Both the position numbers and the translations under genes were made by a program. A stretch of DNA of 57,893 nucleotides, filler included, from Dugesia japonica (taxonomy: Eukaryota), in NCBI GenBank assembly GCA_001938525.1. It is 4 parts of 4 records of this genome, joined end to end, with 100 filler letters (N's around TTAATTAATTAA, not from the genome) between each part and the next. Parts side by side here need not be neighbours in the genome. Positions count along the whole stretch, not along the records: positions 11,599 to 28,855 come from MQRL01634369.1; 3 more parts are not named here. The stretch is one strand, 5' to 3'. Below, in pieces: positions 13,321 to 57,893 of the stretch. The notes beneath the pieces are model-generated. The model was not told the DNA's origin and did not search any database. It saw only the letters and a program-made list of their open reading frames with translations. Each line of letters begins with the position of its first letter. Position 1 is the first letter of the stretch.

Positions 13321-16300
13321 TATAACAAAAATATTAATCAGGAAAGTTTGAAATTGTTCAACTGTGACCCTTTCATCATTGTTATAGCAGTCAACATATG
13401 TTTGATGGTTGATGGTGCTATTTTTTAATTTGACGCCTTTTGCTTTCATTGTTTCTTTCTCAGAAAGCAAGCTGTAACATTTTGGACGTAAGAATATCCA
13501 TTCAAAATACTTCTTCCATTTATTCTCGTCTTTAAACTTATCAATGACAGAATTCAACTTATTACTATAGAGAGGATGCTCTTTACTATAGTTTGAAGTA
13601 TATAATAATTCAACTTTCTTTATAAATCCGGTAAGTCTTTCTAAACTTATATCCACCAAATCTAGAAAAAAGCTGTCAATATCGCCAGCTACAATATTAA
13701 TACTACATTTTTCTTCTTTTCTGTACTTTACAAGCTCGATGTACTGCAGCTGGTACATTCGTAATTTGCTCAAGTCAAGTACAGATTGACCAATGTAGCT
13801 TGGACGATCTAAACATACTAACTCTTTATTCATTAAAACTGCTATCAGGTTTTCTGCAATCTTGATTGATTTCTGGAAGCTGAGTTTAGAGGCATATGTT
13901 ACCAGCTTTTTACTAGTATTGGATAAGCATCCATACAGAATGTTAATATCAATGTATAACAAATCTATGTTTTCACTAGTGGTGACATGATGTTTGTTAA
14001 TAAATGGCAATCCAGCCCTTATTCCACCTTCAAAAAAGGTGTACATATCGTTGTCCATCAACAATTTTATCGGTTTATTCAATGACATCAAGGCTGATGA
14101 CCAGATTATACCCGGTATGCCAAAGAAATTCAATGGCTCCAATTTGTTGTGTGAAATTTATTTGATTCTGAACTGTTGGAAGAAATCNNNNNNNNNNNNN
14201 NNNNNNNNNNNNNNNNAGACCATCATATAATCCAGAAGCGTCCTGCAATTTGTTAATCTCCAAATTTCTAATGCTTTTCATACTTAACATCTAATATTTC
14301 ATCCCATTTCAGTGGCATTTCTGTTGTTTCAACCAGAACTTGCAAACTGGTTGCATAATTATTTGGGAATATTCCCTTTGAAGTAGTTATTTGCCTATCT
14401 TTAAACTCATTTAAAGTTAACGGTGTGTTTTTTAAGGATTTTATGGCTGAATCCAGTGATGAGTTTATAAACTGATATGAATTTATAAACTTTATTGTTA
14501 AAAATTTAGTTTCATGCACTGTTAAGCATAGAAACTTTTCTTTTGTTGTTGGTTTGCATCTCAAGTCCCATTGTGAGAATTTACTTATTCCATATTTCAA
14601 GATATGATGCAAATCATACCCTCTTAAATTATGANNNNNNNNNNNNNNNNNNNNNNNNNNNNNNNNNNNNNNNNNNNNNNNNNNAATTTACTTATTCCAT
14701 ATTTCAAGATATGATGCAAATCATACCCTCTTAAATTATGAAATACAACAGGTAGTTGGCTTTTCACATGTCTGCTCAAATAACATTTAGAGCATGCTGC
14801 ACCCAAATACTGACCGGTAAAATGATCATGATCATGAACTGGTGTTAAATGTTTTCTTGCACAAATAACAAATTGTGGCTACAGAAAATGATTTTTCCTC
14901 TTCTTCATTTATCTTCATGGGCTTATTTCCATTTTTTGTGTAATATGGAGTCACTAAACTATGATTGATTTCTTTGATTTCCTTTAAAAAATCATATATG
15001 CAGTCATCTCCAAAGAACTGCTTATATATTGTTTCATTAGTAAAGTTATTTACTAATAGCATTCCTACTGAAATCGGCATATGTATTTGAAAATGTACAT
15101 TATCTGTGGGAAGAACTAATTCAAAATCAGCATATACTACGAATGGTGATGTCAGACATTTATAAAAATCCTTAAACTCTAAATCTTTCTCTGACGGCAT
15201 GGTATATAGAGTTGTACCGGTTTGGATTTTCTCGCAAATTATCGCATGCTTTTCAAAGGCTAATTTATGCCTAAATTCATTAAAAAAATTTGAACCCCAA
15301 TTTGATCTTATTCTTACACTTTCTCCTTTAGTATTCCAACTTAACAGTCTGTTCAGATCCATTACAGCCGGGTAATGGTACTTGTTGTCATTTTTGTAGC
15401 ATTAANNNNNNNNNNNNNNNNNCCGTTATCTACTCTAGACTTGTGAATGATATCTAAATTGGGATGTTTGTAAACCTCTTCATCATCATCTTCAACATCA
15501 CTTGAATTCCACAAAAGTACATTGATTGAAAGTCCTGGATTTTTTCTTTCGAATTTCCAAATAGCATTTATTATCTAACTTCATTGGCATGTCTGTTTCT
15601 TCAAACTTCAACTCTGACATATATTTTTCATATACAGATGTTCTATTTCTACATTTCCTATCAACTCGATATTTTTTGAGAATAGCTAAAATGCTGTAAA
15701 TAAAGCACTTATTATCTTCATTCTTAATATTAACTAGATTGACTGGCGGTGGTATGTAACTATGGCCAACAGTCTGTTGATATTTTCTATCTTTGTAATT
15801 TTCAGCTTTATTTCTGAAATCCTGCTCAGTATCCAGCTGGAACGGAGCTCACTCTTTATAGCAATTTTTTCATTCAATTGATTTATTTCATAATCAAAAA
15901 TGTTTTCGTTTAAAGGAATAGCTCGATTTGATTTGAAGCAAGCTTTTATCTCGTCATCCCTTATAAATTCAACGTCAATGCCAAATTGAATTTTTACTTC
16001 TTTCAACTCTTCTATTATCTTAAATAGTTGGACGATCAAATTTTCTGGTAGCAAAATTTGATTTGTGTTCAAACTTGATGTATTTATTTTAATTATTTGG
16101 TTGCAACGATATAAATCCTTTTCGATAACTACATCTTCATCAGAAACAACGAGATTTAATACACCACCAACTTGATTATTTTCTTCTGCATAAATGAATT
16201 CTTGTAGTAAAATATTATCATCTTCAACAACAGTATTTTTCGCACTATCAATAAGTTTCTGTTCTTCAGCATCCATACATGCTTGTAAAACTGTATCTTC

Positions 16301-16501
16301 CTCGTCTAACTCGTTTATGATCTCGAAATAATTACAATCAAATTCCAATAGCTGTGGTGGTTGAATGTCGTTATCTGATTCGTTCGAAAATTCCGGTTCA
16401 AACATAACGTCTCTTTCTTCATGAACTTTCATAGCATCCATTGCTGCCGGATCTTCATTATCTGAAACTATATATTCATCAACTGCTTTTTCTTTTTTCA
16501 C
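13285..16501 (-). pseudogene. polB: Protein-primed family B DNA polymerase of Polinton/adintovirus type (frameshifted, internally deleted)
   Basis: Motifs in the expected order: acidic N-terminus with QVGG; VNIKNEDNKCFIYSILA; PFVVYADFE (ExoI); CYLC...DHDHFTGQYLGAACSKC (endonuclease VII-like); FHNLRGYD (ExoII); SKGIFP; FFEGGIRAG; YIDINILYG (motif A); YIGQSVLDLSK; GDIDS (motif C); KFKDE; LRPKCYS; KAKGV. Confidence 0.92.
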
Positions 16502-16680
16502 TTAGCTTGAGGCTCATTTAATATGGTTTTTAGAAATTTTTTCTTATTCTGGGTACATGGTCCTATATGCTCTGCATGCAATATGTAAAAATTTGTAAAT
16601 ATGTTTGTACTTATTGTTCTGCATGTTAGACATATATAATACATTTCCCTAAAAAAACACTGACGATAGTATTTTTCCAT
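16498..16680 (-). pseudogene. Cys/His-containing ORF directly upstream of polB (probably its 5' part or a companion gene)
   Basis: MEKYYRQCFFREMYYICLTCRT...LHAE aligns with MEKYYSKKFSGTKYYTWPTCKT...EHAD at 23608(+), which lies in front of the second polB copy. Confidence 0.6.
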
Positions 16681-18920
16681 AATACTATGTCAGTCTCCAT
16701 TGTGAGCCTCATTTACACAATAATTGGTGTATAATGAGCCTTGTTCTAAAATATACAATAAGTAAATATTTTCCTATCTTATATTATCATAAAATATTAA
16801 GAAAATTTATTTTACATTACTTAAGTAAGATAAAATCTGACTCACTAATTAATTGAATATCCAGAACAAAAAGAGCATCATTAAAGTCGTGATTCTGAAA
16901 TTAAAAAAATTAATTAATTAATTATTATTAATAGTATTTACCATATTTTTTCTTTTCATGTTAAGACTCTCACGTTTCTTGAAATTCTAAATAAAAAATT
17001 AAATAGTTATAAAAAAAATAAACTTACTTTATTCATTGTTATCGAATCTTTAATCTTCTTTAATTTTAAATAGAAATATAAATTTTTTCAGCAAAATGAT
17101 AAAAGGATAGATCTTTTACCATAAAAATCACGTTAACTACTGACCAATAATTTGGTACAGACACAGGCGGAGATTGCAAAGTAAATTGTTTTAAAACTCC
17201 CACATAAGTTGATTATGAAAATGGATCTTGCATGAGCTCTTTTAATCCAACAAAAATCATCGAATAGGAACCTGTTTTCTCTTATAAATTGATCATATAA
17301 ATTATTAATTTAAAAGTTGTTAAATTTCCGTATAAACCACGAATTATATGATATAATGAAATTTTAATTTAAAAATCTTAAAACAATCAACTTTAGATTA
17401 AAAAGGTTAGATATAATTAAAATTCACACCTATAATACTAGAAATATTTATTTTAACTGAATAAATCATTTTATAGTAAGAATATAAATCATTTTGTCTT
17501 AAAATTATTCCAATGAATATTTCGTAAGTTAGCTGCTATGTAAAATGTAAACCTTTTCTGCAGCCAACACTGAAGAGGCGAAGCATTTCGTGATTAGCTA
17601 AGTGGCCTGAGCGGACCATTGCTGCCCACGTATTTTTGATCATATAATAGAAAAAGAAAAGGATTTTAGCCCACATAACTATGTTAAATTTTAACAATTA
17701 AAAATTCTTTATAGATCAACCCACTTCCGCTTTTATAGTTATTTTAGTACTTTGAAGTCTAAAGCACTAAGAGTATTATTGACTTTTTTTATTGATCCAC
17801 CCCAAAAAGTTGAAATCATGAAATTTTATTGTAACCAATTAAAAATTTTATCCCGATCTTTTTTGATTTCTTTTTTTAATTTTAAGAAAACTTTAATGTA
17901 ATATATCATTACACACAAAATTTTACATAGAGTAAGAAAATCTTGGTAAAAAATAAATAAGCCATAAATACAACGAACTAAACCCATATTAATATTTCAA
18001 TTTTCCTTATTTACAATTTTAAATGACTCCAGAACATTAGAATTCTCCCCTTAGCAACGTTATCATTATAATCCACATCATGAACTAGTCATTTTAATGA
18101 TAAATGTCCGTTTCATTCATACGCATTTATACGATCAAATAAATTCAAGTTATTTTGTTCATGAAGTTCTCTCATAGATGGTCAAGTAATCCAAGAAGCT
18201 TATGAATAAATGAAAGGTATTCGCAGACAACCAAATTGTTTAAGTATATGAATATAAGTATACAAAAGATATATTTCATTCTGACTGCGAGAAATAGAAT
18301 ATGATAACTAGAATATACACACGACTAGAATGATGTATTAATGAGCACATAAAATGGAATCATAGAAAACTAAGTGCTCATGAGGGTTAACGACTACAAG
18401 CTGATAAATGATCTTGTACACACGTGCGTTACACAGGGGTAATTTTTCAATTGATAAACAGAAATCTTCTCTGTGGAACATTAATAACTAAATTTTTCCA
18501 ACAGAAATATCAATATTGGAAAATCCCTGTAAGTTATATTAATATCTTAAATTCTCCCAGAAGAACATCAATATCTGAATATTTATAATTTTAAAATTTA
18601 TTAATTGAAAACTTATTATTTTCCTTGTTGAAATTTTATTTATTAATAATTTTTTTAACAATCATTTAATTTATTAATAATAAATTTTATTTATTGATTT
18701 TTTGATTTCAGATTGAAAACCTTTCAATATATTGTACAATTTAAGTAACTAGTATTAATTTTAAATAATAAATTTTCTTTCGTTTTTTATTGTCTTTGTT
18801 TTAAATAATCATTATTATTAACTTTTGATAATAAAATTAACTAAAAATTTCGAATTCAACTAAAATAAAATCTCATACTTATCATTATTATTTTCGATGG
18901 AATAAGCGTTTCGCAGTAAA

Positions 18921-21900
18921 ATGAATGAAATTATAAATGCTGTAGTAACTATTACTACTGACATTAAACAAAGGTCGAATCAATTGCTATTAGCCGAAGC
19001 TGAACGCTTATTTCAGAAGTGGAATAAATCTAAAGAAAAAAATGATTTACATTCATACTTTGAAAAGGATTTATTCAGGTAAGATAAANATTTATAGTTA
19101 TATAGTTAGTAATATTTTTTGGCAAAAACATCGAAAGTTGGTAAATTTTGAGATATCGCAAAAAAAATTTAAATTTTTGTATAATTCATGATTTAAATAA
19201 AAAATGAAAAAAAGATTTACAATAATAATTTATATAAAATGATGAATTAAGTTAGTGTTTGCAAAACAATAGGAAATATGTTTTTTTTTATTTTAAGTTC
19301 AAACTTGTTATATGACAATAAAAATAAATAATTCCGAAAGTTAAAGTTATTTTATAACTTTTGATTGTATTTTCAGTTAAATATCTCCACAAATACTTTT
19401 ATCTTATAAACTGAAGAAAAACATTGATTGTTAATGTAAGCAATTTTGTCCTTCAAACTTGTATTAATTATTATTGGTTATTTATTACAATACACACCTA
19501 TTGTGTTTTGGTTTTGTGGTTTTTATGCTTTTGCGTATCTATATGTAGTAATTTGTTTTTGCTTGGAGATTAAAATAAAATAATAATATAATATGCTATT
19601 ATTTAAAATAAAATGAATAAATATATATTGTTCCTATTTTATGGAAGTTTTATAAAATAATTCAAATAATTCCATATTTATTAATTATATTGCTTTATTG
19701 TTAATTTAACGTATAGAAAATACATAAAATAAAAAATTATTTATTATTCTAGAGCTTGTTATGTCACTGAATTATATGAAAGAAGAGTAAATTGTTTCTT
19801 CAACCTTTTACAATCATTCAATTCTGATGAGAATGTAAAAACTTGTTTTAAATCAGTAAATCAATTATAAATTGAAAATGAGATTTTAATGGTTCAATGA
19901 ATGTAGATTGGAGCAATAACTTGTATTGGTTGCGGTCCTGGTCCAGAAATAGTAGCTTACTTTTGGTATCTACGAAATATATTGGAGTGTCCGAATTTGG
20001 ATATTAAATTTATTGGAATAGATTGCATAAATGCGTGGGAAATTTATATTGATGCATTAAGAGAAAAATTGGATGACAAAACTGAAGTCGAATTTCGAGT
20101 TAGAATTATATATTTTCAGTTAAATATTTATCAGAATACAAAAAATTCTTTAGTAGATTATTGTTAATATTATTACTTTCAAGTTTAAAATCATGAATAA
20201 AAACTAAAACCCTTTGGAATATGAACTTAAACACAGTAGTTGGAAAATTCAAAGAAATTAAAGGGTAAGATATAAGGTATGGCTATTTCTGAGCTATTGG
20301 AATGAAATAGTACAGGATGTAATAAATAATAAATTAATACTTTTACTCTCTCTTAAAACAAATGCAATGGATGAATTCAAAGATTCAATAGCTTCTCCAA
20401 AAGTAACAAAAATAATGCCAAAAGACAACATTACAAATGAATCAAAACTCAAAGGTTCTGGTAGAAAAAGTAAGCATACAAGTATAAACAAACAAATGAA
20501 TGGCTATGTAACTATATTTGAAAAATTATTATCGGAAAAGCTGAACTATGTATTTTTGATCATCCAACTCCTCGACATGCTATTGAATATAGATAATCTG
20601 AAGATGCGTTTCCAATGAATTCAATTTCCAAAAGTAGAAATGATGTAGAGTTTTTTATAAATGAATCACAAACTGATTATCTATATTTGAATGATACACT
20701 ATTGTATGTAAAAGTAATAAATGAATATTTATTTTTTTTATAGAAAATAGGTAATGAAACTTATGTTTAAAAGGCTTTGAGTGAAACTGTTTTGAATTAT
20801 AATGGAGATAGTAAAAAATTTATCTTGCAGTAGTTGGTTTTGTAAATAAAGATGATTAACAAAAGTCAATTAAATTATCAAAGTTATTGTCTCTATGGGG
20901 TTCTTTGCAACAAGATTTCATGTATCAACCAAAATATCTTATTCCTGATGTTAATGTACCCATTTGATTGAAGAGAGCAGCCAATAGAATCGGTTTAGAA
21001 TCTGTAAATGAAGAACCAAAATTTTTATTGCTTGATGCAAAATTAATGGTTAAAAGAGTTCAAGTTGAATCATCAGTACTAACGGATCATCAAATAGAAC
21101 TTGCTAAGCAAAATGCAGTTTATCCAATAAGAACTAAGGAAATTGTAGTTTATGCAATCAATACAGATAATACAACGTTTTATTAGGAGCAAATCTTTGG
21201 AGATCGTCGATTACCAAACTTTTTGTTGGTAATATTTCAAAGCAGAGATTTATTTAATGGACACTTAAAAACATCAAGCTCGAATTTTGATCATTTCAAT
21301 GTCAAATCTATAACTTTATCTAAAAACTAACTGAAAATGGTAATTACAGCACATCATACATGCAATCAGTAGTTAGAAATGTGGGATTTCTAAAAAAAAA
21401 TAAGAATTGTGGAATAACACTTGAGGTGTTTAAAAAAAATATCCATTCTTTGTCTTTGTACTTGCTCCAGATATTGATATTAATCAAAGTCAATTACCAC
21501 AACATAGGAATATGAGCTTGGAAATCAATTTTGGCAATGTTTTTACTACACCAGCATATTTATTAATCTACGGAGTTTTTGAAAATTATATCCAAATTAC
21601 ATCAGACAGAGCAATACTAATGTAAACAATCTCCATATCATAAAAATAGTTGACCAAAATGAAGAAAGTTTTAATTATTACTTTGATATTAGTTTAATAG
21701 TTCAATTTAAATAAATCAAATTGCTACAAAATGGCTTGGATAAGATTTTCTCAGTGTTTATCCATTGGACAAGCTTCCATTTAAAATACGCAATCATCGA
21801 ATATCGGTGAACATTGGTTAGCATTTTACAATAAGCCTGAAAATATACTGGTATTCAATCCATTTTATTATCCACCAATTTTGGTTTTGCAGCTATCAAG

Positions 21901-24900
21901 ATTATTAAAGCCTATTGTATTCAATTTAGTTTGATTTCAAGATCCATTTACAACAAATTGTGGACAGCAATGCTTATTGTGGTTGAAATACCAGTATTTT
22001 TATATGAAATAAATGTTTTTAATCAACAAATTATGTTTTAAATTAATCTGTTGTTATTTACTGGTAATGTAACACCAATGCAGTTCATATGCAACTAACT
22101 TATTACGTTGCGGTATTTTAAATATTAAAATAATTAAAAATATTACGTTACAATATTTTTGAATTCATACACATAGTGATTCATAAAGTATTTATTATGT
22201 GTCAGCATACAACACACATTTGAATAAAAAGTAGTTACTTGTAAAATTATTAAACTTTTTCAATTTACAAATAAACGTGAGTTTTTATCAATAACTTTTA
22301 TTGCTTTTTAATTTTTTATTACATGATAATAATTAACAAAGACAATTACAACATTAATTCAACAATGAAAGCAGTCAGCAATGAAACGATATGAGGAATA
22401 ACAACGTAATGTACTAATATTTTATTTATAAATTTTATAATTATTTATAGAAGATGACTAAAAATGATGAAGTTATATAATTGAATTTTAATGAGAATAT
22501 GAGGATTATGACTAGAAATGACACTACTTTGATGCCTTTGAATTTTGCTAATATGGAGATAATGACTAGAAATAATGCTCAAATATCTTCCTTAGATATT
22601 TTGTGAGATAAACAAACCACGTTATTTTTTATTAATTTTAAATGCTTTGAATTTAATTTTTATGATTTATTTTCTTTTTATTAGTTTTTATGTATCATAT
22701 TTAGTTTTATAGATTTTTTATAAGTTTTTTTATAACTATATTTTTGATAATTGATAATGATATGTAAGTTGAATAATTTTAATAACTTTTGATAATAAAT
22801 GAGTAACTTCTAATAATAATGATATGAATACGTTTGATAATAATAATAATAACAATATTTTAAGATAATATTATAAATAATTTAATAATAACATAAATAA
22901 TAATAATAACTTTAATAATTTTTATGATAATTATAGTAATTATTATTTTTGATAAAAATGATAATAATTTTGATAAGAATCTTATATTCATAAAAAATAT
23001 AATAATAATGATATTTTTCAATATTAACACTTTTGATAAAAATATTTATAGCAACAATTTAAATTCGAAACTTTATTTTCAAACAATTATTTTCTCATAG
23101 CTCTTTTATTTCGATTAGTTGACTATCTGCTACTTAGATTGCTCTATTTTAAATATTACAGTCTTTCATGCTTATACATTATTTTCACCATCATTTGACT
23201 AGAGATTTCATCTATTTGTTACATGTGAAGTTTTGTAACATTTGCCAATTCTTCAACAACATGATCCCTTATTTGTTTTTGAATATTCTAAATAATAAAT
23301 TAGAATAAAAAGATTAATTAAATAAATAACTTACAATTTTAAAACTCTCGTAGAGATAATAAATTGTATTCAAATATGTGATGAAATTATGTAATGATGT
23401 CAGTAAAATTTCGTTGATTCATTTAAAGTTTTCTAAAGATTTATTTTTCTAAACTTACATAATAATTTGATTAAAATTATTAATTTCACAATAATATTTT
23501 GATAATAATGTTAATATTTTTGATAGTACAGTGATTAGACTTATTTTTATTTATATATTATATTTTATTTAACAATATGCTTCCATAAAAGAGAATGCCA
23601 TATGGTTATGGAGAAATATTATTCCAAAAAATTCTCTGGGACAAAGTACTACACATGGCCTACATGTAAAACACTAGATATAGGTACTTATGCATGTTTT
23701 TTTAAGGAGCATGCAGACCTCATTAAGCAATTTGAAACGACTAAAAAATGAGGGATATACTTTCAAAAACTGATATAGGTGCTACACTAACTAAGAGAGT
23801 AAGAAAAGAACCAATATTAATTGATGAACTGCAGGCTATGATAATAAAACCAAAGAAAATTAAACCAAGTCGGTGGATCATTAGATGAGCCCACAATTGA
23901 AATGGATTTGAATAGGTGTTATGAGATACTTAAGTTAAATGTATCTCATCATAATAGAAGGGAAATAGCATTACCATAAGTACTGATAGGGAAATTCATT
24001 TACTCGTACCAGTTCATTTATTCATCATTAGTTGCTGCCGTCAAGTCAATTAAAATCACTCCTGTGACATCAAAAATGTTTAATGATAATAGTATTATAA
24101 AGTCAAAAGGGGTTTTTACATATGATTTCGCCACAAGCTTATATTTCTTAATAGAAACAACATCAATGCCACCGAGATGGAACGAATTGAGTAAACAAGA
24201 ATATGTTAAAGCAGTTGAAATGTGTGAGATTACTAATTTTAAAACCTACTAGATTATATAATGGCTTATCTTAAGATCGGTGACTTTTTGTTGGCTGAGT
24301 TATTTCAACAACTTTTAGCAACGTCTATAGCGCACAATAAGCTGGAACCATTGAATGTTTACGGTATACCAGGCATGTCATGGGCATCTGCATTAATAAC
24401 TTTTAAAGAACTTATAGAATTATTAACGAATAACGACATGTATACATTATTTGAAGGAGGAATCAGAAGAGGGCTCACCTTTGGTAACAAACATTATGTC
24501 GCTAATGATGAAAACCAGGAGCTTCTATACATTGATATCAATAACTTGTATGGGTGAGCTTTAAGTCTAAAGTTGACATATAAAAAATTTGAGTGGATGC
24601 ATCCGGGATTGGATTTGAATTCACTATCTTATGGCTATACTATGGATATTTTTGTTTCGATTCATTTTTTGGGTTTGAATAAATAATTAACAAAAATGTT
24701 TATTTTCTACCAACAATTATTTAAGTAAATTAAGTTCTTTTAATACAGAAAAATTTTATTTTTTTCAAACATAAAAATTAAAATGTATTTTCCATGCGGT
24801 TAACAAGCATTTCCAGTATGTTACTCTTAATATTTTTATTGCCTCATAATATACTTCAAAATATGGAATATGTCGTGTAAATATTGTTTAACATCATAAA

Positions 24901-26460
24901 TTTTCGATATCAATAATTTAGAACAGCGGTCTCCAAACTGTTGCCCACGGAGACCTTTTTATCTATGGAAAATGTGTGTAGTTGGCCCCCAAACTGTTGA
25001 TTGATGCAGCCCTCGGACTGAAAGGTTTAGAGACCCCTGGTTTAGAACAATTATTATTTGGATTTCAACTCTAACTATTTGCACAACGTATCTGTAATAT
25101 TACTTTCATCGATTTATACAATGTCACTGTCGGTATATTTTTGAGAATTTATTGTTAATGAGTTCTTTAAAAATTAATAAATTATTTAAATAATTTCTTT
25201 TCTTCTTTTATTTTAATTTTCATTGTTTTTATTAATACTCATTTCTGTAACTTAAAAAATAACATTTTTTAAAATTAATTTAAGTAATTTTATTACAAAT
25301 TAATTTTATTTTCTACTACTTGAGTAATTTATTTATTATTTTATAATNNNNNNNNNNNNNNNNNNNNNNNNNNNNNNNNNNNNNNNNNTTATTTAATTAC
25401 AATTTTGCTGTGTATTACTTTTACTATATTGCTACTTTTGGTATTACAATTTGTGATTTCCATGTGATCTTAGGTTGGATTCCCTCAAAAATAATTAAAA
25501 TAAACATTCGCAACTACATATGACATATAAAACAGGCTAACTTTCTACACTTCAAAGGAATAAACATGAAGAAATATTAATCAAAGAGAAACCTAAAATC
25601 AATAAACTCAAATAAATATAATTCAAATTCAAATTGTAAAATTAAAATGCTGGAAAATATTATAATATTGGTTAAATCAATCAATCTGTTAAATTAATGA
25701 AGAATACAAAAATCGAAAATTCGAATAACTATCAAAAAAGAAATAGAAATAAAAAAAACTACATCTTAATCGAAGCCTTTAATTTAATGAAATCTCAAAT
25801 ACGACCAATAGTTAAATCCAATAATTATTCTAGCAATAAAATATTCGTCACTACATCACATAAGTAAATTAACAAGAAAATTTAATTAACCTCTAATAAA
25901 ATAAAGAAAATCATACAATAAAACAATAACAATAATCTTATTCAAATTATATATTTTAAGTTATTAATTTTTAAATTTTTTCTGAAGATTATTTCAAATT
26001 TTCTAATATTACGGTTAAATTTTGTTTTAAAAGTTGGATTTTGAATTTTAAAACGTTTTTGTAATTTCATAATAATTACTTTTAGTTAAATTTTTTATTT
26101 TTGAGGATTTACTCGATTAATAGTATTTGGTTTTATTTTAAAATTTTAATTAAAAACTTGAATTTTGAATAATTAATTTTGCTTGTAGTAAATTTTATAT
26201 TTCAGAACGAAACTGTTAGTGAGAATTTGATAGAAAATATGAAGGAAGGAAAATTATGTTTGATGTCATATCCTCATTGGAGTAATCTTCCAAATATTTG
26301 GACAAGTTTGAAAAGTAAATTTGAAATGATAATTGTACTTGATGTGAAAACGAGGACATTTACAAGTAACATGTTGAGATATGATTATACAGAAAAATCT
26401 TTTAGTGATGATCGCAGTCAAAAAACTTGTTATTATTATATGAAGAATAATACTTCCTAA
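18921..26460 (+). CDS. Class I SAM-dependent methyltransferase-like protein, 4 exons, 235 aa, apparently intact
   Basis: Exons 18921-19078, 19753-19855, 19907-20098 and 26206-26460. All introns are GT..AG with compatible phases (2,0,0), and the 708-nt joined frame has no internal stop. Motif I ITCIGCGPGPE, motif II KFIGID, then LCLMSY and MIIVLD strands. AATAAA at ~26618. Confidence 0.75.
20280..20490 (+). pseudogene. Remnant of the small basic Polinton protein preceding the capsid gene
   Basis: EIVQDVINNK...LKGSGRKSKH lies directly upstream of the capsid gene and resembles the GSG+basic-tail small proteins found at this position in Polintons. Confidence 0.45.
20526..21625 (+). pseudogene. 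Polinton/Maverick major capsid protein (F54H12.2-like, double jelly-roll)
   Basis: Family blocks in order, broken by stops, frameshifts and deletions: KAELCIFDHPTPRHAIE; VEFFINESQTDYLYLNDTLLYVKV; ETVLNYNGDSK; GSLQQDFMYQPKYLIPDV; DAKLMVKRVQV..HQIELAKQNAVYPI; FDHFNV; FVLAPD; LEINF; IYGVFENYIQITSDR. Confidence 0.85.
21735..22000 (+). pseudogene. Adenain-like (C5) cysteine maturation protease
   Basis: FLSVYPLDKLP...GEHWLAFY...FNPFYYPP...FQDPFTTNCGQQC. His, Gln and Cys are retained, the catalytic Asp position reads N, and the segment follows the capsid gene directly. Confidence 0.8.
22740..23045. repeat. Low-complexity degenerate tandem repeat (ttttgataataat-like)
   Basis: Many imperfect tttgataa(t)aat units inside the Polinton remnant. 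Confidence 0.5.
23602..24645 (+). pseudogene. polB: Second protein-primed PolB remnant (diverged relative of the minus-strand copy)
   Basis: SYQFIYSSL; KSKGVFTYDFATSL; YLKIGDFLLAELFQQ; LEPLNVYGIPGMSWASAL; LFEGGIRRG; LLYIDINNLYG*ALSLKLTYKKFEW. Collinear with 13930-14500(-). Confidence 0.88.
24924..25039. mobile_element. 116-bp hAT-type MITE
   Basis: TIRs CAGCGGTCTCCAAAC / GTTTAGAGACCCCTG. The 8-bp flanks ATTTAGAA and GTTTAGAA match 7/8, consistent with a hAT target duplication. Confidence 0.8.
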
Positions 26461-33350: not shown

Positions 33351-36300
33351 CTGAGTTCAGGTATCTTTTTATATCTTCATACATCCATCCCGAAACATTC
33401 CACGAGTTAAAATCTTCTTCAGAGGGTTCATATGAAATCATAGCATTGATCATCGAAGTTCCTCCCAATAGTTTTCCTCCAATCAAAATCATTTGCTAAA
33501 ACAAATTTAACTAAATACAATTATTACTTAGAGTTGTTTGAAGGTTTAAATATTGAAAGTCATATTTTTCGTTTATAAGTTGAAAAATAATAAAATTTTG
33601 ATAATTATTTCGTTTTTTGCTATTTGAAATTAAAAATGCAACTTCTACCTCAATATAGTGTATAATTGAACGTTGAGACAGAAGTTATCGGATCTCTAGA
33701 GTTTATTAACTGTTTAGAAAACTTCCCTGAATTAAAAGTTTAATACAGTTAGTATGTTAGCGACAAAACGAATCCATTGTATCAATCATTCGTGTATGGA
33801 AGAAAATCAAAAGGGGATCTTTGCATAAATTGTGGAAATATATTTCGTAAATAATTTGACTTTTATTATTTTAAGATAATATTAATTGTATAACCAAACG
33901 TTTTGAGATTTTAGCTTTAACTTTCTCGAGAATTAAAAAATAAGTGTATTTAAAATAGTTTGAATATTTGATTTTATATATGCATTGATATATGCATTAA
34001 GGTGTAAACAACATCTGAAAGTGAACACACACACACACACACAAAATTTCTGTTATATTTTTTTTGAATCACTTTCTATCTTTTTTTTAATATTTTCGAT
34101 TTTTTAAATTACTTCTTTAGATTTATCCAAACTATTGACATCATGTAATTTCAGTTCTTTCTTTGTATCATTATTTTCCAACGCATCATTCATAATAGAA
34201 ATTATCAATACTAATGAGCAGGTAACATAGAATGCTATCAGTTAAAATCTCAAAGAAATTAATTTTTCTCTTTTTTAAATGAATTCAAATTTCAAATCCT
34301 TAGCTATATTTTTCTTCAAGTTTTCTTCAAAATTGTTTCTAATCATGTTTCAGTAAATCTGAATTGTTTCTGAATCAAAAAGCGTTTTGATAAAAAAATT
34401 CTCATTTCTTCTGATATTTGCGATAATTCAAATAATCTTCGTTTCTTTCAAAAATGCATCAACATATCCTACTACTTGAAACTTGTTCAGAAGCTTAATA
34501 ATTTTTTAACAGTTTGGCGTGTTCTCCATATTAAGTACAAGTAAGAATAATTAAGAGCTTATATTTAAAAATGTGTATTATTTAAGAATAATATCTTTTT
34601 TTCAGTTAGATCAGGTATAGCAATTACTTAATTGACCCTATTTGACATCATATAATCAAACATATAGGTTTTTTCAGACATACATGCCAACATACAATTA
34701 CGTAATATTAAATATTTAATTACAATTAAATTAATTAATCTCATCTCACACAAACTACGCTGAATTATTTTTGTACGCTACTTAATTTGATTTAACGTTA
34801 TAAGAAATAGCTCAAGACATACGAAATTTTAAAATTTTTTATAGTATATTTAAATTAATAATTGACAACCATTTTTTTAAATATTTATTTGCGATCAATT
34901 TTGACGGAATAACCGTCATCGTCAGGCAATTAAAGAATATTAAAACAAACTATTTACAAAGTTTAAATGATTTGATAATTTCAATTGTGCAATCCCAATA
35001 AAAAAANNNNNNNNNNNNNNNNNNNNNNNNNNNNNNNNNNNNNNNNNNNNNNNNNNNNNNNNNNNNNNNNNNNNNNNNNNNNNNNNNNNNNNNNNNNNNN
35101 NNNNNNNNNNNNNNNNNAAATCAGAACACCCTATTGATTTTCTACATTTTCTCCGATGCTCAACAATATTACTATTACCACTATTTCGACTTTGCTCTTG
35201 AACTCTGATGCAGAGATGACTAGAAGTCTCTCTAATGTATGTGGCGTTACACCCATTGCATTTAATTTGATAGACCAGATCAGAGCACAAGCCTAAAGGT
35301 GTTACAGATTTATTATTGAACATATTTATAACCTTATGAGATTGAGATACAACTTTTATATTTAAAATATTCTTAAGCACATTTTCAATCGAAAGTTTGA
35401 ATTTTTAAAGACTTCAGAATAAGGTAAAGATAACACAATTTTATGATCTGTTTCTACAACCTCAGATACATCAAAACGACAAGTCACTATTAAATTTATT
35501 CAAAGTTTCATAAACTAATTTGTCCGTAAACAATTTAGAAGACGCATTATTATGAAGTAAGTCAATTAATTTTTTTGATAAAAGTAGAAGAGAGAGACCA
35601 AGAACTATGAATTAGTTCTTTAATCATATAGTTTTATATTTTATGTCACAAAAACTGGCAGGATTTGTAAACAAACCGGTATCAGTTTTCTTTNNNNNNN
35701 NNNNNNTTTCAAATGAAGTATTCTTTCTTTCAATAAGCAAATCAAGAAATGAAACAGTTGAATTGATCTCTTCTTCAACTGTAAAGCCTATATTTGGATG
35801 GAAGTTATTCATATACTCAAAAAACAAATTTCCTCAAATGTCGATTTTAAAAGTATTAATTAAAATGATAATTGAAAATTATAATTAAAACTACTTAGTA
35901 TTTTATTTTTGACATTTCTTCAAATGTCCAATTTTGAAATTATGGATTAAACTTATAATTGAAAATTAAAATTTGAATTATTGAGTATATATTAAAATAT
36001 ATTATAAAAGATTTTAAATATTAAATATTAAATTAGATATTTTTTAAATATATATGAAAATATATTTTATGTATTTACAAATATTTCAATATCTTGAAGC
36101 CTTGATTATATTTTTTAACATTCTTTCATTAAAATATTAATGAGAGTTAATTTGTTTGAATATTCTGACTATTAATCTTTTTAACTTCCAACGAAAACCG
36201 TAACAATTTATGATTAAATATTTGTGGAGACTTGCGATATTGTAGACCCAACTAATAACCATATTGATTTTTTTCAATTTCGTTAAATCAAACTCGGATG

Positions 36301-41360: not shown

Positions 41361-41896
41361 NNNNNNNNNNNNNNNNNNNNNNNNNNNNNNAATTCGTCAT
41401 CCGAACATAGATCGACAAATGTTCGGTGGGCATTCTTAGGAGATGGAAGAGCCGATGAAGTTCAGGGAGCCTTCAATTGCAGATTCCAAAGGCTTTCATT
41501 TTTCTAGATCTTCATACACTGAGATTCGTCTCTCTTGGTAAATTCTATGTTTTCATTTTTTAAGGATAAGACTTTTAGCAATACCAAATGTTTCGGAATT
41601 TTCTGTTTTTGTTATTGATTTTCGAAAAATAAATTTTGTTTTAATTTTTGTCTTTTTATTTAATTTATCTGTTCTTTAATTTGATATTTNNNNNNNNNNN
41701 NNNNNNNNNNNNNNNNNNNNNNNNNNNNNNNNNNNNNNNNNNNNNNNNNNNNNNNNNNNNNNNNNNNNNNNNNNNNNNNNNNNNNNNNNNNNNNNNNNNN
41801 NNNNNNNNNNNNNNNNNNNNNNNNNNNNNNNNNNNNNNNNNNNNNNNNNNNNNNNNNNNNNNNNNNNNNNNNNNNNNNNNNNNNNNNNNNNNNNNN

Positions 41897-49936
<8,040 letters not shown>

Positions 49937-51869: not shown

Positions 51870-54800
51870 TGTTAGGCGAGTTTGGAAAACTCCTCAAATC
51901 TTTAACATCGGAAATCAACTCCATAAATTTATTAAAATAAAACATATAACATCATTATTTGGTAAATCAAAGAAATGGTATCTTTATCTTGTTTTGTCAT
52001 TGTTATCAAAGCTACATACTTACTGCATTGGTCTATTATACCAAGAACATATTTTTTCAATCTCTTGTCTCCGGTAGGGCTCCACATAAATTTATAAATA
52101 ACAGTTCAAACATTTTGTCTGGCTGCGTCGTATTTGTTTCTTCCTTCGTTTTTGTTGTTTAGCTTTCTGGCATGTTATACAGCTTTGGACACCCTCTTGC
52201 TCCACAAATGTTTCGCGTTATAATTATGCTTCATATACGTTGATACTTTTTCTGCTTCAGCATGACACAAAAGATGGCGTATTTTCACTATAACCTCTTC
52301 TACTTTATCATCAGGTATCCATGTTCCTTCATCATTCATCAATGTTTCCTTGTTTTTCTTGAATATCTACTGTATTTAACATCTTTGTTTTACTTTTCAA
52401 CTTTTGAGATATTCAGGTGACATTAGACATTTTTCACATGTACCGCGTTTAGTCCTTGACAACATATCTACATTTGTATGAAGCGATCCTTTTCTATATT
52501 CTAATTTTATATTTAAACTGCTCAAATAATTAATTCAGGTTTGAAACTGTGATGTGGTCAGCTTCTTGGTATTTAGCAAAAAGGTGATGGCTTTATTGTC
52601 TGTTCTGAGGATAAATCTCTTCCCCTCTAAATAATGTTAGAAATGAAAACAAAAGTAATAAATTGCGACCAATTCTTTCCGCGTAGTAAAATATCTTTTC
52701 TCATGAATCGTCATTGCGTGTGGCCCATTTGCAATTACTCATTTTTGCCCATTGTTGTCCTTTTGAGATAGTACTGTCCCAATCGTATAGAAATTCATAT
52801 CTGTGTCCAAAGAAAATCCTCTATTTATATATGGAAAACATAATATTGGAGACATCATTAGTGCTTGTTTCATTCCACTAAAAACTTCTTCTAATTCCCT
52901 CGTCCATTCAATTTTCTTGTTACTTGGCCCAGTACACAGTTATTCCAGCAATCTAGCTTTTTTTGAATAATCATTAATAAACTTGTGATAGTAATTGCAA
53001 ATTCCTAAAAAGCTTCTCATTTTCTTAACGAATTTTGGTTTTACCAAAGTTCTTAATTACTTCTATTTTAGTTAGATCTGTTTTGACACCTTCTTTACTG
53101 ATAACGTGTCCCAAAAATCTTTTTTCGCATGACTTGACATTTCTCCGGTTTAACTCTTAGACCAGCTTTAATTTCTGTTATTACTTCATTGATTATTTCA
53201 TAGTTTTGTTCTTTTTTTCGGTAGATATGAGAATATCATCTAAATAAACCATCGCTCCTTTTATTTTTTTGATTACTTTATTCATCATTTCCTGGAACAT
53301 CTGTGGTACTGCTGCAATTCCAAAAGACATTTTATTTAAACAAAATTGCACTTGTTTGGTCGAAAAAGCTGTCTTTTCTTGAGAATCNTCACTNAGTTCC
53401 ACTTNGTAGTATGCATTTCATAAGTCTATTGAGNTAAAATACTNTGTATCTTACAAAGCCTCCAGCATTTTGTCCACATTTGGCATAGGAAAAACTTGTC
53501 TTTCTGTTATTGCATTGAGCTGTCTAAAGTCTAAGCATAATTGTATATCCTTTTTTTTCTTTTTCCAAACGCAGATTAATGCGTATTCTATTGAGAATTA
53601 CACTTCTGGGTGATGCCATTATCATATAGATTCTTGATGGCCTCTTCAATCTTCTCTTCTAGATTCATTGGTTGGTGATGCGCTTTTATGTTGATTGGAC
53701 CTCATTTAGTGATTATTCGATGCTTTATTAAGTGTGTACATTCAATGTCCCATTTTTCGCTATAAATACATCCTGATTTTCTGAATGATTGCAGTTAATC
53801 TACAATCTTTGTTAATTTCTAGAATCTCTATTGAATGTCTCAGTCGTTTATCCGTCTGTATCTGCCTTCTAAATTTTGACTCGATATTGCAAACAAATTT
53901 TTCTCGATGATTATTGATGTCTAACCTGCACGTTTTTTGAAGATGATACCTAAAGGTATTCTGAAATTCCACTACACCAATTAGATCTGGTATTAATTTC
54001 TCTACTATTATAAATGTTATTTCCTTGCATACCTCTTAAACTACAACTTCGATAGTTATCGTTCCAATTGTCTTTAATGAGATGTTATTGGCAAAATTCA
54101 ATCGTTCATCGCTTTTCTCTAACATTGTTTCTCCGAGTCTATTAAATTCTTTCATGCTCATCACATTTATTCTNGCTCCTGTATCTAACAAACAAGCAAA
54201 CTGTTCACCCTTGATCATCATTGAAATGCTAGGTCTCCCTTGCCTTTTATCATATGTAATTTCAACATTCTGTTTCTCTTCAATTATTCCTTTCACTTCT
54301 GCTTTGTTAACTTCCGCATCATTGAAACTTTCTCTTTTTAGTAATTTGTAAACTTTTTCTCTCATTTTACTTGTCTCATCCTATTTCTTGGCTTCTTGAA
54401 TATATTCAAACGTTAACTCGTTTAATGGATGGCTCCAAACAACTCTTTTACTGATGGATCCCTGCTTTTTGGCTATTCTCTTCTCGGATCTTCATTTTCT
54501 ATTATGCTGTCAGAAAATCTCTCTTCATTCTCATCATCAAATTCTTCTCAAATGGCATGAATTGGTTTGATCCGACTCCAATCTTTTGTTTGTTGTCCGC
54601 TTTTAGAATTGTATCTTCACCTAATTTAGGTTTACTAATGTTGAATTAACATTCTTCTGCTCTGTGACCTGGTCTTTTATATCTACCGCATACAATTTCT
54701 GTACACATTCTTCTGATATGACCAATCTTACTACACTCAAAACATTTTAGTGGTTTTTTATCTAGACAATTTCTACTTAAATGCCCTTATTTGTGACAAG

Positions 54801-55565
54801 TCTAACATTCCACATGAGAACTTTTCGGACACTCTCTTTTTGTATTCCCATAACTCTGGCATGTCACACACTGTGGTTCTGTTCTTTTTGTAACTCTCTC
54901 AATATTTTGTCTCCTTTCTTNNNNNNNNNNNNNNNNNNTTACACCCACATAACTCTTTACTACGTTAATAGGTTCTCTTCTTTCTATTTTTCTACTAATG
55001 ATAACGTTTTTTTTATATTGTTTACTTTCTCCAATTTTTGCATGATAATCTTTTCTTCGGCATTTTTACTATTTGCACAAATTATTAGCATTTTTAATAA
55101 AAGTTTTTCTTTCGTCAGGTCTCCATTTGCTAAACATTTATCGACCAAATCTTCAACTTTTTTAAAAAACTTTTCAAGTTTTTCATCACCACGTTGATAG
55201 CTTACAAGATTCTGCAAATCTTTTATTATGTCTCTCTTGCTCTCAAAAGCTAATCGCAATATCTCTCGATATCCATCCGCTTTATTCCTTCACATTTGCT
55301 ACCATTAAATCTTCATGAAGCATACATGTTACCCAACGTTCCTGATCTTTTTTAACAACGATGTTCTTTTCCTCACAGTATATTTCACACCGTTTAATAA
55401 ACTTTTCCAGATATTTGCCTCTGCAAAATATTTTTGGCAATAATCTTTTTGTGATTGCATCGGTGTTTATCGCTGCCACCATGTTAGGAGAGTTTGGAAA
55501 ACTCCTCGAAAAATTAACATCAGAATTCAACTCCATAAATTTATTAAAATAAAAACTATAACAAC
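51870..55565 (-). mobile_element. Ty3/Gypsy LTR retrotransposon, decayed
   Basis: Direct repeat tgttagg.gagtttggaaaactcctc at 51870 and 55482. PBS TGGTGGCAGCG (55481-55471) and PPT GGAGCAAGAGGG (52203-52192), giving a 3' LTR of ~51870-52191. Gag with two CCHC-type knuckles (~54650-54750), protease LLDTG (54036-54365), RT YLDD (~53240) and RNase H LDTD (~52800). Integrase core absent. Confidence 0.92.
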
Positions 55566-57893
55566 ATTAATTGTATTTTTAAACAAAGTAAATCCCTGTT
55601 TTAAATTGGTGATCGTTTATTAAGATTTTTTAAAGTCTATTTAAAGTCATTTGATTTTTTAAATTAGATTTTAAAATAAATTTTCAATTTATTTATTAAA
55701 ATTAAATTTCAGAATTTAAAACAATTAATCATTCGTCATTTAATTTTCATTTCAATTTAAATATTTTTCAAAGATTTCAAGAAAAACAATCACCAACCAC
55801 ACAAAAATTTCAACTCGCTTAAAACACACTCACAGACANNNNNNNNNNNNNNNNNNNNNNNNNNNNNNNNNNNNNNNNNNNNNNNNNNNNCAGACAAATT
55901 TCCTTAGAGAGATCAAAACTTTGCACAAACTATATTTAATTTCAAAATTAAATTGTAAAGAAATCGAAAAATAATTGTAAGAATTATATGAACTTTTATA
56001 AAACTGGTCAAAATTTACATAAACCTTTTAACCCAATCACATACTTTATTCACTTAACACACAAATTCGCCTATTGAAACCATCTAAATTTATCCATTTA
56101 ATATACACTTATCACAAATAGTCAGCTTTACTTCTCAAATAATTCATCATCTAATCACTCATATTCCATTTATTAATTGTTAATATTCTAGCGAAGAGTA
56201 TCGAAATATTTAAGTTTTTATTGGTTTATCATAATTATCAATAACTCTATTACTCATATAATCCACCAATTGTTAAATTAACAAAGCCAAATAATTCAGT
56301 ATTCAAGTAGATCGATAGGTACACATTGGCTTAATTGTGAAATTGTTTTTTACATATAAGTATCACAAAATTTATAGAAATTGTATAGACAATACTAAAT
56401 ATTTTCAAAATAAAATACTCTGTTTATCAATACAAATTCAAGATAGGTAATATGAATACCTCTCACGTGGCATTCTAACATCAACTAGGAAAGGAAAACA
56501 TGTAAAATAATACTCTAATACTGACAAGTAATATCAAGATTGATGACCTGCTATTAATTCATTCATATAATTAATACAATATTGCTTTCAAATGTTAATT
56601 TTCCGGGGAGTAACTAGATTTATTAAATTAATTTGATTTTATATGTTGATCAACGCATTTGATTGTTAATTCCAAATAATCCATTTAATCTATCAATCAT
56701 TTACTTAATCAGCTTAAACCTGTTCAATTAATATTTCAAATCAATTAATTTACGCACGAATTAATGGTTTAATCTACTATTTCGATCAATTATTCCTTAT
56801 AATAAAACCTTTAATTCATACAATTTGCATAATACACCTTTAATCTTTACTCTACAGTCAATAAACTCAAATAACCCAGTTAATTGTTTACGTATTTTCA
56901 TCTTAATTTGGTTAAAGTATTTTGAAAATAGATCTTTTCACGTGCATTATAAACCAATTAATCTGTTACTTGGAACATATAAATTTATTTAATCAATAAT
57001 ATTCTTACCAAATATTCATTAACTTATCATATTTACCATTTCAAATAATTTATAATCATTCAAATATTTTAAAATTAATTACTACAATAGGCCGTTAAAC
57101 AGTAAGATGATAGATCAGTAAGTTATCAGACATATCGGTTGATGATCTATGAATAAACGTATTTTAAATTACTTTTATTTGATTTTTATAAATTACCACC
57201 AATAATAGGCGTCTATTTATGTAAAAGCTTAAATTTTCACTTCTTATTAAAAACATCTAGAGTTATGCTATTTTACTGTTAGAATTAAAGTACTTATTTG
57301 AAAATTATTTGAAATTTATTAAATCCATCATACTTAATTTATTCAATCAAATATATGGGTTATTTTCAATAAATAGTGACAAATTATTCTAAAATACATG
57401 GAAATCAAATTTACACTTTGAAAATTAATCATAACATAAAAATATNNNNNNNNNNNNNNNNNNNNNNNNNNNNNNNNNNNNNNNNNNNNNNNNNNNNNNN
57501 NNNNNNNNNNNNNNNNNNNNNNNNNNNNNNNNNNNNNNNNNNNNNNNNNNNNNNNNNNNNNNNNNNNNNNNNNNNNNNNNNNNNNNNNNNNNNNNNNNNN
57601 NNNNNNNNNNNNNNNNNNNNNNNNNNNNNNNNNNNNNNNNNNNNNNNNNNNNNNNNNNNNNNNNNNNNNNNNNNNNATCAAATCATTTTGAATTAAAGTT
57701 TAAATTTATAAATCAAAATTTTGATTCGACCTCTCCTAGGAAATTTGACAGATTACGTAATTCCTATTAACAAGATCATAAGTCTGATCGACCATGACTT
57801 TGACACCTGTGTAAGTGAAAACATATTAATTAATGTCATTATCGAAATTTAATTTTAAACTTTTTAACTAATGAAACTATTTACTAAAACTAT

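What the first reader, a model, noticed from the sequence alone, without database searches (positions are those of the whole stretch)
18921..26460. Hidden intact spliced methyltransferase of unrecognised family, surrounded by endogenous-virus remnants
Seen: four exons join through canonical GT-AG introns (674, 51 and ~6100 nt) into an uninterrupted 235-aa ORF, MNEIINAV...DLFRACYVTELYERRVNCFFNLL...GAITCIGCGPGPEIVAY...KFIGIDCINAW...VEFR|NETVSENLIENMKEGKLCLMSYPHW...MIIVLD...YYYMKNNTS. The 51-nt intron removes exactly three in-frame stops. Known: xGCGxG followed by an acidic residue at the end of strand 2 is the class I SAM-binding signature. Inference: the ORF is intact while all neighbouring TE and viral genes are decayed, so it is probably under selection. 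I cannot assign it to a standard animal methyltransferase family. It could be a lineage-restricted or horizontally acquired enzyme, or former Polinton cargo, since Polinton pieces lie upstream, inside and downstream of it.
Basis: partly seen in the sequence, partly recalled or inferred. Interest (0 to 1): 0.75.

Follow-up and report, generated by a model that had tools for sequence, protein, structure and literature searches.

The report
Spliced animal methyltransferase, bacterial defence-island kin
This is a real, spliced and transcribed animal gene, present in several related copies, for a predicted SAM-dependent methyltransferase of an unnamed family whose nearest bacterial relatives sit in likely anti-phage defence islands; the virus remnants in and around it are likely later insertions, and its target, likely a nucleotide base, is untested.

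Summary
The four-exon model is exact: GT-AG introns of 674, 51 and 6107 nt give 235 aa without a stop. All three junctions occur in raw RNA reads of two studies, mostly from paralogues or strains 90-95% alike; this exact copy is shown only for exon 1 and junction 1, and intron 3 spans an assembly gap. Exon 3 carries class I SAM motif I. No Pfam family reaches cut-off. Nearest relatives: an exon-3 fragment from another eukaryote; a conserved intronless 253-aa gene in a second animal's DNA that matches all four exons; and uncharacterised bacterial methyltransferases paired with DUF1848 beside restriction, BREX and NADAR genes, whose model is nearest Rsm22/METTL17-type chains. No viral relative was found. 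So Polinton cargo is unlikely and the gene is not confined to one lineage; transfer from bacteria stays open (weak trees). Best reading: a host methyltransferase family under purifying selection, likely acting on a nucleotide base; substrate untested. New variant of a known kind.

The parts
18836..19078 (+). exon 1 (5' UTR from about 18836; coding from 18921): N-terminal helical cap
   Evidence: X1 record 1 identical over 18836-19078; in-frame stop upstream of the ATG
19079..19752 (+). intron 1, 674 nt, GT-AG
19753..19855 (+). exon 2: cap helix with the R-x-x-Y motif across junction 1
19856..19906 (+). intron 2, 51 nt, three in-frame stops
19907..20098 (+). exon 3: strand 1 to strand 3 of the predicted Rossmann core
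19928..19942 (+). SAM-binding motif I, GCGPG (aa 95-99); Asp126 at 20021-20023, Trp131 at 20036-20038
   Evidence: sequence; G-C-G, D and W invariant in alignments A4, A5, A8
20099..26205 (+). intron 3, 6107 nt, with Polinton-like remnants and a 41-N scaffold gap at 25348-25388
26206..26460 (+). exon 4 coding part: predicted helix-strand4-helix-strand5-strand6-strand7; 3' UTR follows, AATAAA at 26618
   Evidence: (pLDDT 45, low)
20370..21931 (+). broken capsid-like and protease-like remnants in intron 3 (labels recalled, no tool hit)
23539..24556 (+). broken protein-primed polB-like remnant in intron 3
   Evidence: 35-66% aa identity to the upstream polB pieces
13285..16704 (-). upstream broken polB-like region
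   Evidence: (DNA_pol_B_2 E 0.0024)
17295..17512 (-). decayed inverted copy of the 3' end of exon 1 and start of intron 1
   Evidence: 69% over 224 nt, 105 bits; best of 50 shuffles 49.7 bits
27415..27609 (+). downstream fragment resembling a small Polinton ORF (recalled, no tool hit)

Best explanation
This is a transcribed, spliced host gene of a small multi-copy family, encoding a predicted class I SAM-dependent methyltransferase that likely transfers a methyl group to a nucleotide base (free nucleotide or RNA), likely in defence, with the Polinton pieces being likely later insertions. Shown: the splice, transcription of the family, motif I, similarity to a second animal family over all four exons and to bacterial DUF1848-paired methyltransferases over exons 1-3. 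Inferred: SAM binds at GCGPG/Asp126/Trp131; the helical cap (exons 1-2) and the loop after strand 4 (exon 4) form the acceptor pocket; the cell is the cytosol (no hydrophobic or basic N-terminal leader). Step odds: real gene family 0.97; class I fold 0.92; catalytically active 0.75; nucleotide or RNA base rather than another small molecule about 0.55 if active; host gene rather than Polinton cargo 0.9.
For: Junction reads. ESM neighbours of exon 3 are all SAM methyltransferases, scores up to 0.85, a lead only. HMMER over 1.84 billion proteins: 3 hits, one eukaryote-like exon-3 fragment (P0001, 51%, E 8e-12, ORF ending at the same phase-0 donor position), one bacterial methyltransferase (P0003, E 4.5e-4), one repeat-like noise hit. 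A profile of 5 bacterial outliers scores the spliced protein 47 bits over aa 11-159, hhalign 96.6%; shuffling only exons 1-2 never reached that (0 of 300). A profile of 19 sequences of the second animal family ranks it first of 86 held proteins (28.5 bits; next 27.5), with exons 1-2 (0 of 500) and exon 4 (3 of 500) both contributing. The model of bacterial relative P0007 (pLDDT 72) is a seven-stranded class I fold; best matches are rRNA-binding mitoribosome assembly chains, Z 17.1 (rmsd 3.5, 246 aligned), 16.4 (3.7, 242), 14.3 (3.8, 244), taken to be SAF1/METTL17/Rsm22. Weak Methyltransf_34 hit (E 0.063; that this family holds yeast Bmt6 is recalled). DUF1848 follows the gene in 4 of 5 bacterial loci whose neighbours were read (L001-L003, L012; not seen in L013), beside type III restriction, PRTase-CE/NADAR or BREX PglX genes; PADLOC C3a159, a type III CRISPR accessory methyltransferase (PMC6546367), hits 4 of 6 bacterial relatives tested. 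Purifying selection: pN/pS 0.30 here, 0.10-0.28 in the second animal family.
Against: No activity or substrate was tested, and no close relative has a known substrate. The whole protein could not be folded; exon 4 alone gave pLDDT 45. Exons 1-2 and exon 4 alone do not beat shuffles against the 74-member bacterial core profile, and exon 4 adds nothing significant against any bacterial profile. One alignment places exon 4 one strand later, which would mean a missing strand 4. The protein is acidic (pI 5.6), lacks basic runs and lacks the cysteine cap of the bacterial core, which fits a small acceptor better than long RNA; Foldseek's top matches to the bacterial model are small-molecule and peptide enzymes, and histamine methyltransferase ties at Z 14.3. 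The window exons and P0083 themselves hit no PADLOC model. All 12 listed exon-4 differences change a residue, so this copy's exon 4 may be drifting. Trees are weak (87/92, then 73/81).
Confidence: 0.4

Rival explanations
1. Same host gene and fold, but it methylates a non-nucleotide small molecule (amine, phenol, xenobiotic or secreted metabolite), with paralogues diversified for substrate range.
For: Compact, acidic protein; at least three exon-4 sequence types expressed and residue-changing differences clustered in exon 4; Foldseek top hits for the bacterial relative are plantazolicin, phosphoethanolamine and histamine methyltransferases.
Against: The best whole-chain structural matches are rRNA-binding Rsm22-type chains; bacterial relatives sit among nucleic-acid defence genes.
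Confidence: 0.3
2. A non-catalytic SAM sensor or scaffold with a methyltransferase fold.
For: Yeast Rsm22 keeps the fold but has lost SAM binding, and METTL17/Rsm22 act by steric hindrance (PMC9892005 passages); the C-terminal half is much shortened here.
Against: Motif I, the strand-2 Asp and the Trp are intact in the window, in P0001 and in the second animal family.
Confidence: 0.12
3. This genomic copy is a decaying paralogue or a scaffolding join of exons 1-3 and exon 4 from different copies; the working genes lie elsewhere.
For: 41-N gap in intron 3; most reads 90-95% alike and none shown to match the start of exon 4 exactly (29 of 29 and 34 of 34 reads differ at 26221); 12 of 12 listed exon-4 differences non-synonymous; a decayed partial copy next door shows copies do die.
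Against: No stop or frameshift in 235 codons; exon 1 and junction 1 are matched exactly in two runs; X1 contigs share the window's letters at six exon-4 sites where the raw reads differ.
Confidence: 0.12
4. Cargo gene of a Polinton-like element.
For: Element remnants lie upstream, inside and downstream on the gene's strand; the inverted copy of exon 1 is collinear with an inverted copy of the polB region at a similar 57-69% identity.
Against: No relative in IMG/VR or phage records (one search gave only generic motif matches); three spliceosomal introns, one position apparently shared with another species; intronless relative in other animal DNA with no such neighbours; an old inverted duplication of gene plus insert explains the collinearity.
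Confidence: 0.07
5. A fast-evolving orthologue of METTL17/Rsm22 or Bmt6.
For: The family's fold is nearest Rsm22-type chains; weak Methyltransf_34 hit.
Against: 235 aa against 398-833 residues in those chains; no Rsm22 Pfam hit for any exon or for P0083, while a bacterial Rsm22-like protein scores E 1e-12; no targeting leader; multi-copy.
Confidence: 0.04

Closest known systems
Uncharacterised bacterial class I methyltransferases paired with DUF1848 (PF08902), including PADLOC C3a159 (type III CRISPR accessory)
   Same: Helical cap with an aromatic-x5-R-x-x-Y motif, GCGPG-x-E/D motif I, strand-2 Asp, conserved Trp; 32-59 bits by profile (the 59-bit profile includes the animal relative).
   Different: About 20% identity; shorter C-terminal half; no cysteine cap; spliced; no DUF1848 neighbour; exon 4 not significantly matched.
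Unnamed intronless 253-aa animal gene (P0083, locus L014; cluster of 30 members)
   Same: Same compact layout, 25% identity in a global alignment, all four exons contribute; groups with the window protein in two trees.
   Different: No coding introns, longer N-terminus, one match in its bin; itself undescribed; animal origin inferred from the bin (41 GPCR and 113 reverse-transcriptase matches) and the gene-poor contig.
METTL17 / Rsm22 / SAF1 mitoribosome assembly factors
   Same: Best structural match of the bacterial relative's model: helical cap plus class I core.
   Different: Much longer, mitochondrial, single copy; Pfam Rsm22 not hit; iron-sulfur cysteine motif (recalled) absent.
Yeast Bmt6 (25S rRNA m3U2843 methyltransferase; PMC3950682)
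   Same: Rossmann methyltransferase acting on a uridine base; weak Methyltransf_34 hits in exon 3 and several bacterial relatives.
   Different: Far below cut-off (12.9 against 26 bits); orthologues reported for lower eukaryotes; link of PF11312 to Bmt6 is recalled.
Methylase domain fused to UG25 reverse transcriptases (10.1101/2021.12.02.470933)
   Same: Methyltransferase associated with DUF1848 in a defence setting.
   Different: Sequence kinship with this family was not tested; no reverse transcriptase here.

Membership tests
Class I (Rossmann) SAM-dependent methyltransferases | Glycine-rich motif I after strand 1 | tested here: met
   GCGPG aa 95-99, aligned to the invariant motif of relatives
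Class I (Rossmann) SAM-dependent methyltransferases | Acidic residue ending strand 2 | tested here: met
   Asp126, invariant in A4 and A8
Class I (Rossmann) SAM-dependent methyltransferases | Seven-stranded sheet with the strand 6-7 hairpin | tested here: inconclusive
   Shown for the bacterial relative's model; exon 4 alone gives the expected element order at pLDDT 45 and no useful fold match; full protein not folded
Class I (Rossmann) SAM-dependent methyltransferases | SAM binding and methyl transfer | not testable with these tools
   needs biochemistry
METTL17/Rsm22 | Pfam Rsm22 (PF09243) match | tested here: not met
   no hit for any exon at E 0.1 or for P0083 at E 0.5; exons were scanned singly, which lowers sensitivity
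METTL17/Rsm22 | Mitochondrial leader, about 400 aa or more, cysteine cluster motif (recalled) | tested here: not met
   235 aa, first 30 residues hold 3 basic and 4 acidic residues, no PCxH motif
Bmt6 / Methyltransf_34 (PF11312) | Score above the curated cut-off | tested here: not met
   12.9 bits against 26 (exon 3 only)
Bacterial DUF1848-paired methyltransferases | Profile match over cap and core | tested here: met
   47 bits, aa 11-159, against the 5-member outlier profile; 0 of 300 anchored shuffles; against the 74-member core only exon 3 matches
Bacterial DUF1848-paired methyltransferases | DUF1848 gene next door | tested here: not met
   no DUF1848 hit among the window ORFs scanned (22, 18); the rest of the genome was not available
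Bacterial DUF1848-paired methyltransferases | Nested within the family in a tree (transfer from bacteria) | tested here: inconclusive
   animal rows form one side of a branch at 87/92 and 73/81; AU test does not reject grouping with the P0004 clade (p 0.078); long branches, no root, no Bmt6/METTL17 rows
Nucleic-acid amino-methyltransferases (N6A/N4C) | (D/N/S)PP(Y/F/W) after strand 4 | tested here: not met
   pattern absent
Polinton cargo gene | Relatives inside viral or element genomes | tested here: not met
   no relative; these collections hold few animal Polintons (polB and capsid pieces also found nothing), so the test is weak
Polinton cargo gene | Paralogues flanked by polB/capsid and terminal inverted repeats | not testable with these tools
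   no genome held; one decayed local copy is collinear with polB

The most novel reading that the evidence does not exclude
Animals of at least two lineages carry an undescribed methyltransferase family taken from, or shared with, bacterial anti-phage islands (DUF1848, BREX, type III CRISPR neighbours); here it has gained introns, expanded and is diversifying in its acceptor-binding half, and it methylates viral or transposon nucleic acid or a signalling nucleotide as an innate defence enzyme.
Probability: 0.17. Interest if true: 0.85.

Novelty: new variant of a known kind. Interest (0 to 1): 0.52.

Why it matters
It is an expressed animal enzyme family that standard libraries do not name, and it links to an unstudied bacterial methyltransferase-DUF1848 pair found among defence genes. 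If the activity is on a nucleotide base, it would add a new RNA or nucleotide mark to invertebrates and another case of animal immunity sharing parts with bacterial defence; the bacterial pair is directly testable against phages in a laboratory strain. If it is a small-molecule enzyme it is a modest annotation gain.

Tried and rejected
No genome was held, so copy number and flanks of paralogues are unknown. Word-index search with exon 3 among 113-2000 aa proteins: 0 of 4 candidates. NCBIfam, PHROGs and PDB sequence searches of the exons or of family alignments gave nothing useful. Exon 3 in IMG/VR (0 of 15 stretches), phages (14 records, all E 6 or worse); exon 3 + P0001 in JGI metagenomes (0 of 132); P0004 in plasmids (none); P0083 in IMG/VR (0 of 9). 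The three IMG/VR loci are generic methyltransferases in sugar-modification clusters (15-19 bits), as are the BFVD fold matches (7-15% identity). P0002 dropped as a repeat-like chance hit. Fold search with the exon-4 model: best Z 2.8, meaningless at pLDDT 45. No listed holder was on record as RNA; that is no evidence, and the raw RNA runs came in by species label. An extra exon between exons 3 and 4 was considered and rejected because reads join them directly. Rfam: no match in the window. Earlier scan notes: none in four look-ups. Literature searches that found no description of this family; the library lacks most subscription papers, and bioRxiv supplements (such as the UG/Abi cluster tables) were not seen.
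Full report
Observation. The four exons give 708 nt, 235 codons and a stop; the introns are 674, 51 and 6107 nt, all GT-AG, and the 51-nt intron holds three in-frame stops. An in-frame stop precedes the ATG, AATAAA follows at 26618, and 0 of 20000 random joins of the same lengths were open. Only 5 of 258 AG sites in intron 3 and at its end open an 84-codon frame, the others lying in element remnants. The window is 17-33% GC with many AAT runs and holds a cholinesterase gene, so it is an animal; I think a planarian flatworm, from recalled likeness of that gene, which no call tested.

Transcription. I laid 4 of the 24 listed runs. All three junctions appear in raw reads of two studies and in contigs of two more runs; counts are in the observation check. 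Depth is on the exons and, in the stranded run, fits the + strand. But 450 of 511 and 190 of 247 laid reads are only 90-95% alike, and at least three sequence types of the start of exon 4 recur across runs, so this is a small expressed family. The exact copy is matched only over exon 1 and junction 1. A 41-N gap lies in intron 3. Of the 40 differences shown (199 were not shown), 30 fall in coding exons: 13 synonymous, 17 not, pN/pS 0.30, p 0.0016; exons 1 and 3 give 13 to 5, exon 4 gives 0 to 12. That is purifying selection on the SAM-binding half and either relaxed or positive selection on the other; the truncated table could bias it.

What it encodes. No library names it: Pfam gives only Methyltransf_34 at E 0.063 for exon 3, NCBIfam, PHROGs and PADLOC nothing. 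ESM neighbours of exon 3 are SAM methyltransferases at 0.85 or less. HMMER over 1.84 billion proteins gave three hits: P0001, a 99-aa ORF on a 713-nt contig, 51% identical and ending three residues after the position of the window's donor, which I read as the same intron in another eukaryote; P0003, a bacterial methyltransferase; and one chance hit. Following P0003 gave 79 proteins among 5619 candidates (the query alignment held exon 3 and P0001): a bacterial core with a cysteine-rich cap, five more distant bacterial proteins, and P0001; every named row is bacterial. The spliced protein scores 32 bits on the 74-member core profile (best of 500 shuffles 8.2), over exon 3 only, and 47 bits over aa 11-159 on the five outliers, where the exon 1-2 part matters (0 of 300 anchored shuffles).

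A second animal lineage. A scan with the outlier alignment returned locus L014, a lone 253-aa ORF in an 8.7-kb gene-poor contig of a bin labelled bacterium that holds 41 GPCR and 113 reverse-transcriptase matches, so animal DNA; its GC matches the GPCR contigs, which look coral-like to me (recalled, untested). The protein has 30 cluster members and four metagenome relatives at 86-91% with pN/pS 0.10-0.28. It aligns with aa 49-228 of the window protein (31.5 bits; 55 of 221 identical globally) and shares its short C-terminal half. A 19-sequence profile ranks the window protein first of 86, narrowly (28.5 against 27.5 bits), with exons 1-2 (0 of 500) and exon 4 (3 of 500) contributing. Trees put the animal rows on one side of a branch at 87/92 (34 rows) and 73/81 (20 rows); only subsets of the bacterial core went in, branches are long, and grouping the window protein with the bacterial P0004 clade is not rejected (p 0.078). 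I recall larger uncharacterised invertebrate families with a similar cap and motif; no call reached them, so ancient inheritance with losses is as open as transfer.

Fold and context of the relatives. The model of bacterial P0007 (pLDDT 72) is a class I methyltransferase with a helical cap. Its best matches among 48161 chains are mitoribosome small-subunit assembly chains (Z 17.1, 16.4, 14.3), which I take to be SAF1, METTL17 and Rsm22 from the entries and chain lengths (PMC9892005, passages read); histamine methyltransferase ties the third, and Foldseek ranks small-molecule enzymes first. DUF1848 follows the gene in 4 of 5 bacterial loci whose neighbours I read, beside type III restriction, PRTase-CE/NADAR and BREX PglX genes. 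PADLOC's C3a159 hits 4 of 6 bacterial relatives tested; it is a type III CRISPR accessory 'methyl transferase' cluster of three members (PMC6546367, table row and passages). A methylase fused to UG25 reverse transcriptases is also tied to DUF1848 (10.1101/2021.12.02.470933, passages). Only three papers in the library mention DUF1848. Exon 4 folded alone gives helix, strand, helix, strand, strand, strand, the expected order, at pLDDT 45.

Polinton link. Broken polB-like pieces lie upstream on the - strand and in intron 3 on the + strand, 35-66% alike; capsid, protease and downstream labels are recalled. A decayed inverted copy of the end of exon 1 and start of intron 1 at 17512-17295 is collinear with the duplicated polB region. 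That fits an old inverted duplication of gene plus insert, and is the one point for cargo. Against cargo: three introns, no viral relative in the collections searched (weak for animal Polintons), and the element-free relative in the second animal. Polintons are among the elements silenced by piRNAs in planarians (PMC8532177, passages).

Mechanism and verdict. Most likely a cytosolic host enzyme that binds SAM at motif I and methylates a nucleotide base in a pocket made by the cap and exon 4, by analogy with Bmt6 (PMC3950682, passages) and with its defence-island relatives (0.40 for the whole chain). A small-molecule enzyme (0.30), a non-catalytic SAM binder (0.12), a dead or chimeric copy (0.12), cargo (0.07) and a drifted METTL17/Bmt6 (0.04) are the rivals. 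It works like a class I methyltransferase of the Rsm22/Bmt6-like kind, but fails the tests for membership in METTL17, Bmt6 and the N6A/N4C enzymes. My searches (listings only, apart from the five papers named) found no description of the family. New variant of a known kind; interest 0.52.

Noticed in passing
G403 (locus L014, contig CBDDTI010000303.1): A 12-Mb bin labelled bacterium in the genome collection is heavily animal DNA: 41 rhodopsin-type GPCR and 113 reverse-transcriptase matches.
   Followed up: partly
L001 5001-6845, L002 330-2231, L003 426-2569, L012 4007-6648: Methyltransferase plus DUF1848 as a recurrent two-gene module among defence genes; L012 has two tandem methyltransferases between BREX PglX and DUF1848. 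A candidate defence or accessory system; no description found.
   Followed up: partly
window 17295-17512 (-) and 13928-17021 (-): Decayed inverted duplicate of the exon 1/intron 1 boundary, collinear with a second copy of the polB region.
   Followed up: yes
window 44991-49936 (-): Exons of an acetylcholinesterase-like gene (COesterase E 1.6e-41; best PDB hits acetylcholinesterases); 41660-42127 may be a further exon.
   Followed up: partly
window 11555-13330: 885-nt near-identical tandem duplication holding a 31-nt minisatellite, bounded by N gaps, just past the upstream polB end; subterminal repeats of the element or an assembly artefact.
   Followed up: no
window 51870-55573: Decayed LTR retroelement: 92-nt direct repeats starting TG 3612 nt apart, gag-like and aspartic protease pieces on the - strand.
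   Followed up: no
window 34940-35404 (-) and 48739-48960 (+): Two related fragments (60% aa) resembling a GIY-YIG endonuclease of Penelope-type elements (recalled; no Pfam hit).
   Followed up: no
window 20443-21750: The capsid-like remnant in intron 3 is covered by reads of both strands in the oligo-dT run and by contigs in X1 and X2, probably from other copies.
   Followed up: no
window 18897-18905: A two-codon upstream ORF in frame with the gene, ending 15 nt before the start codon.
   Followed up: no
window 26458: Reads and one contig show this stop codon as a sense codon, with the next codon a stop, so other copies are one residue longer.
   Followed up: partly
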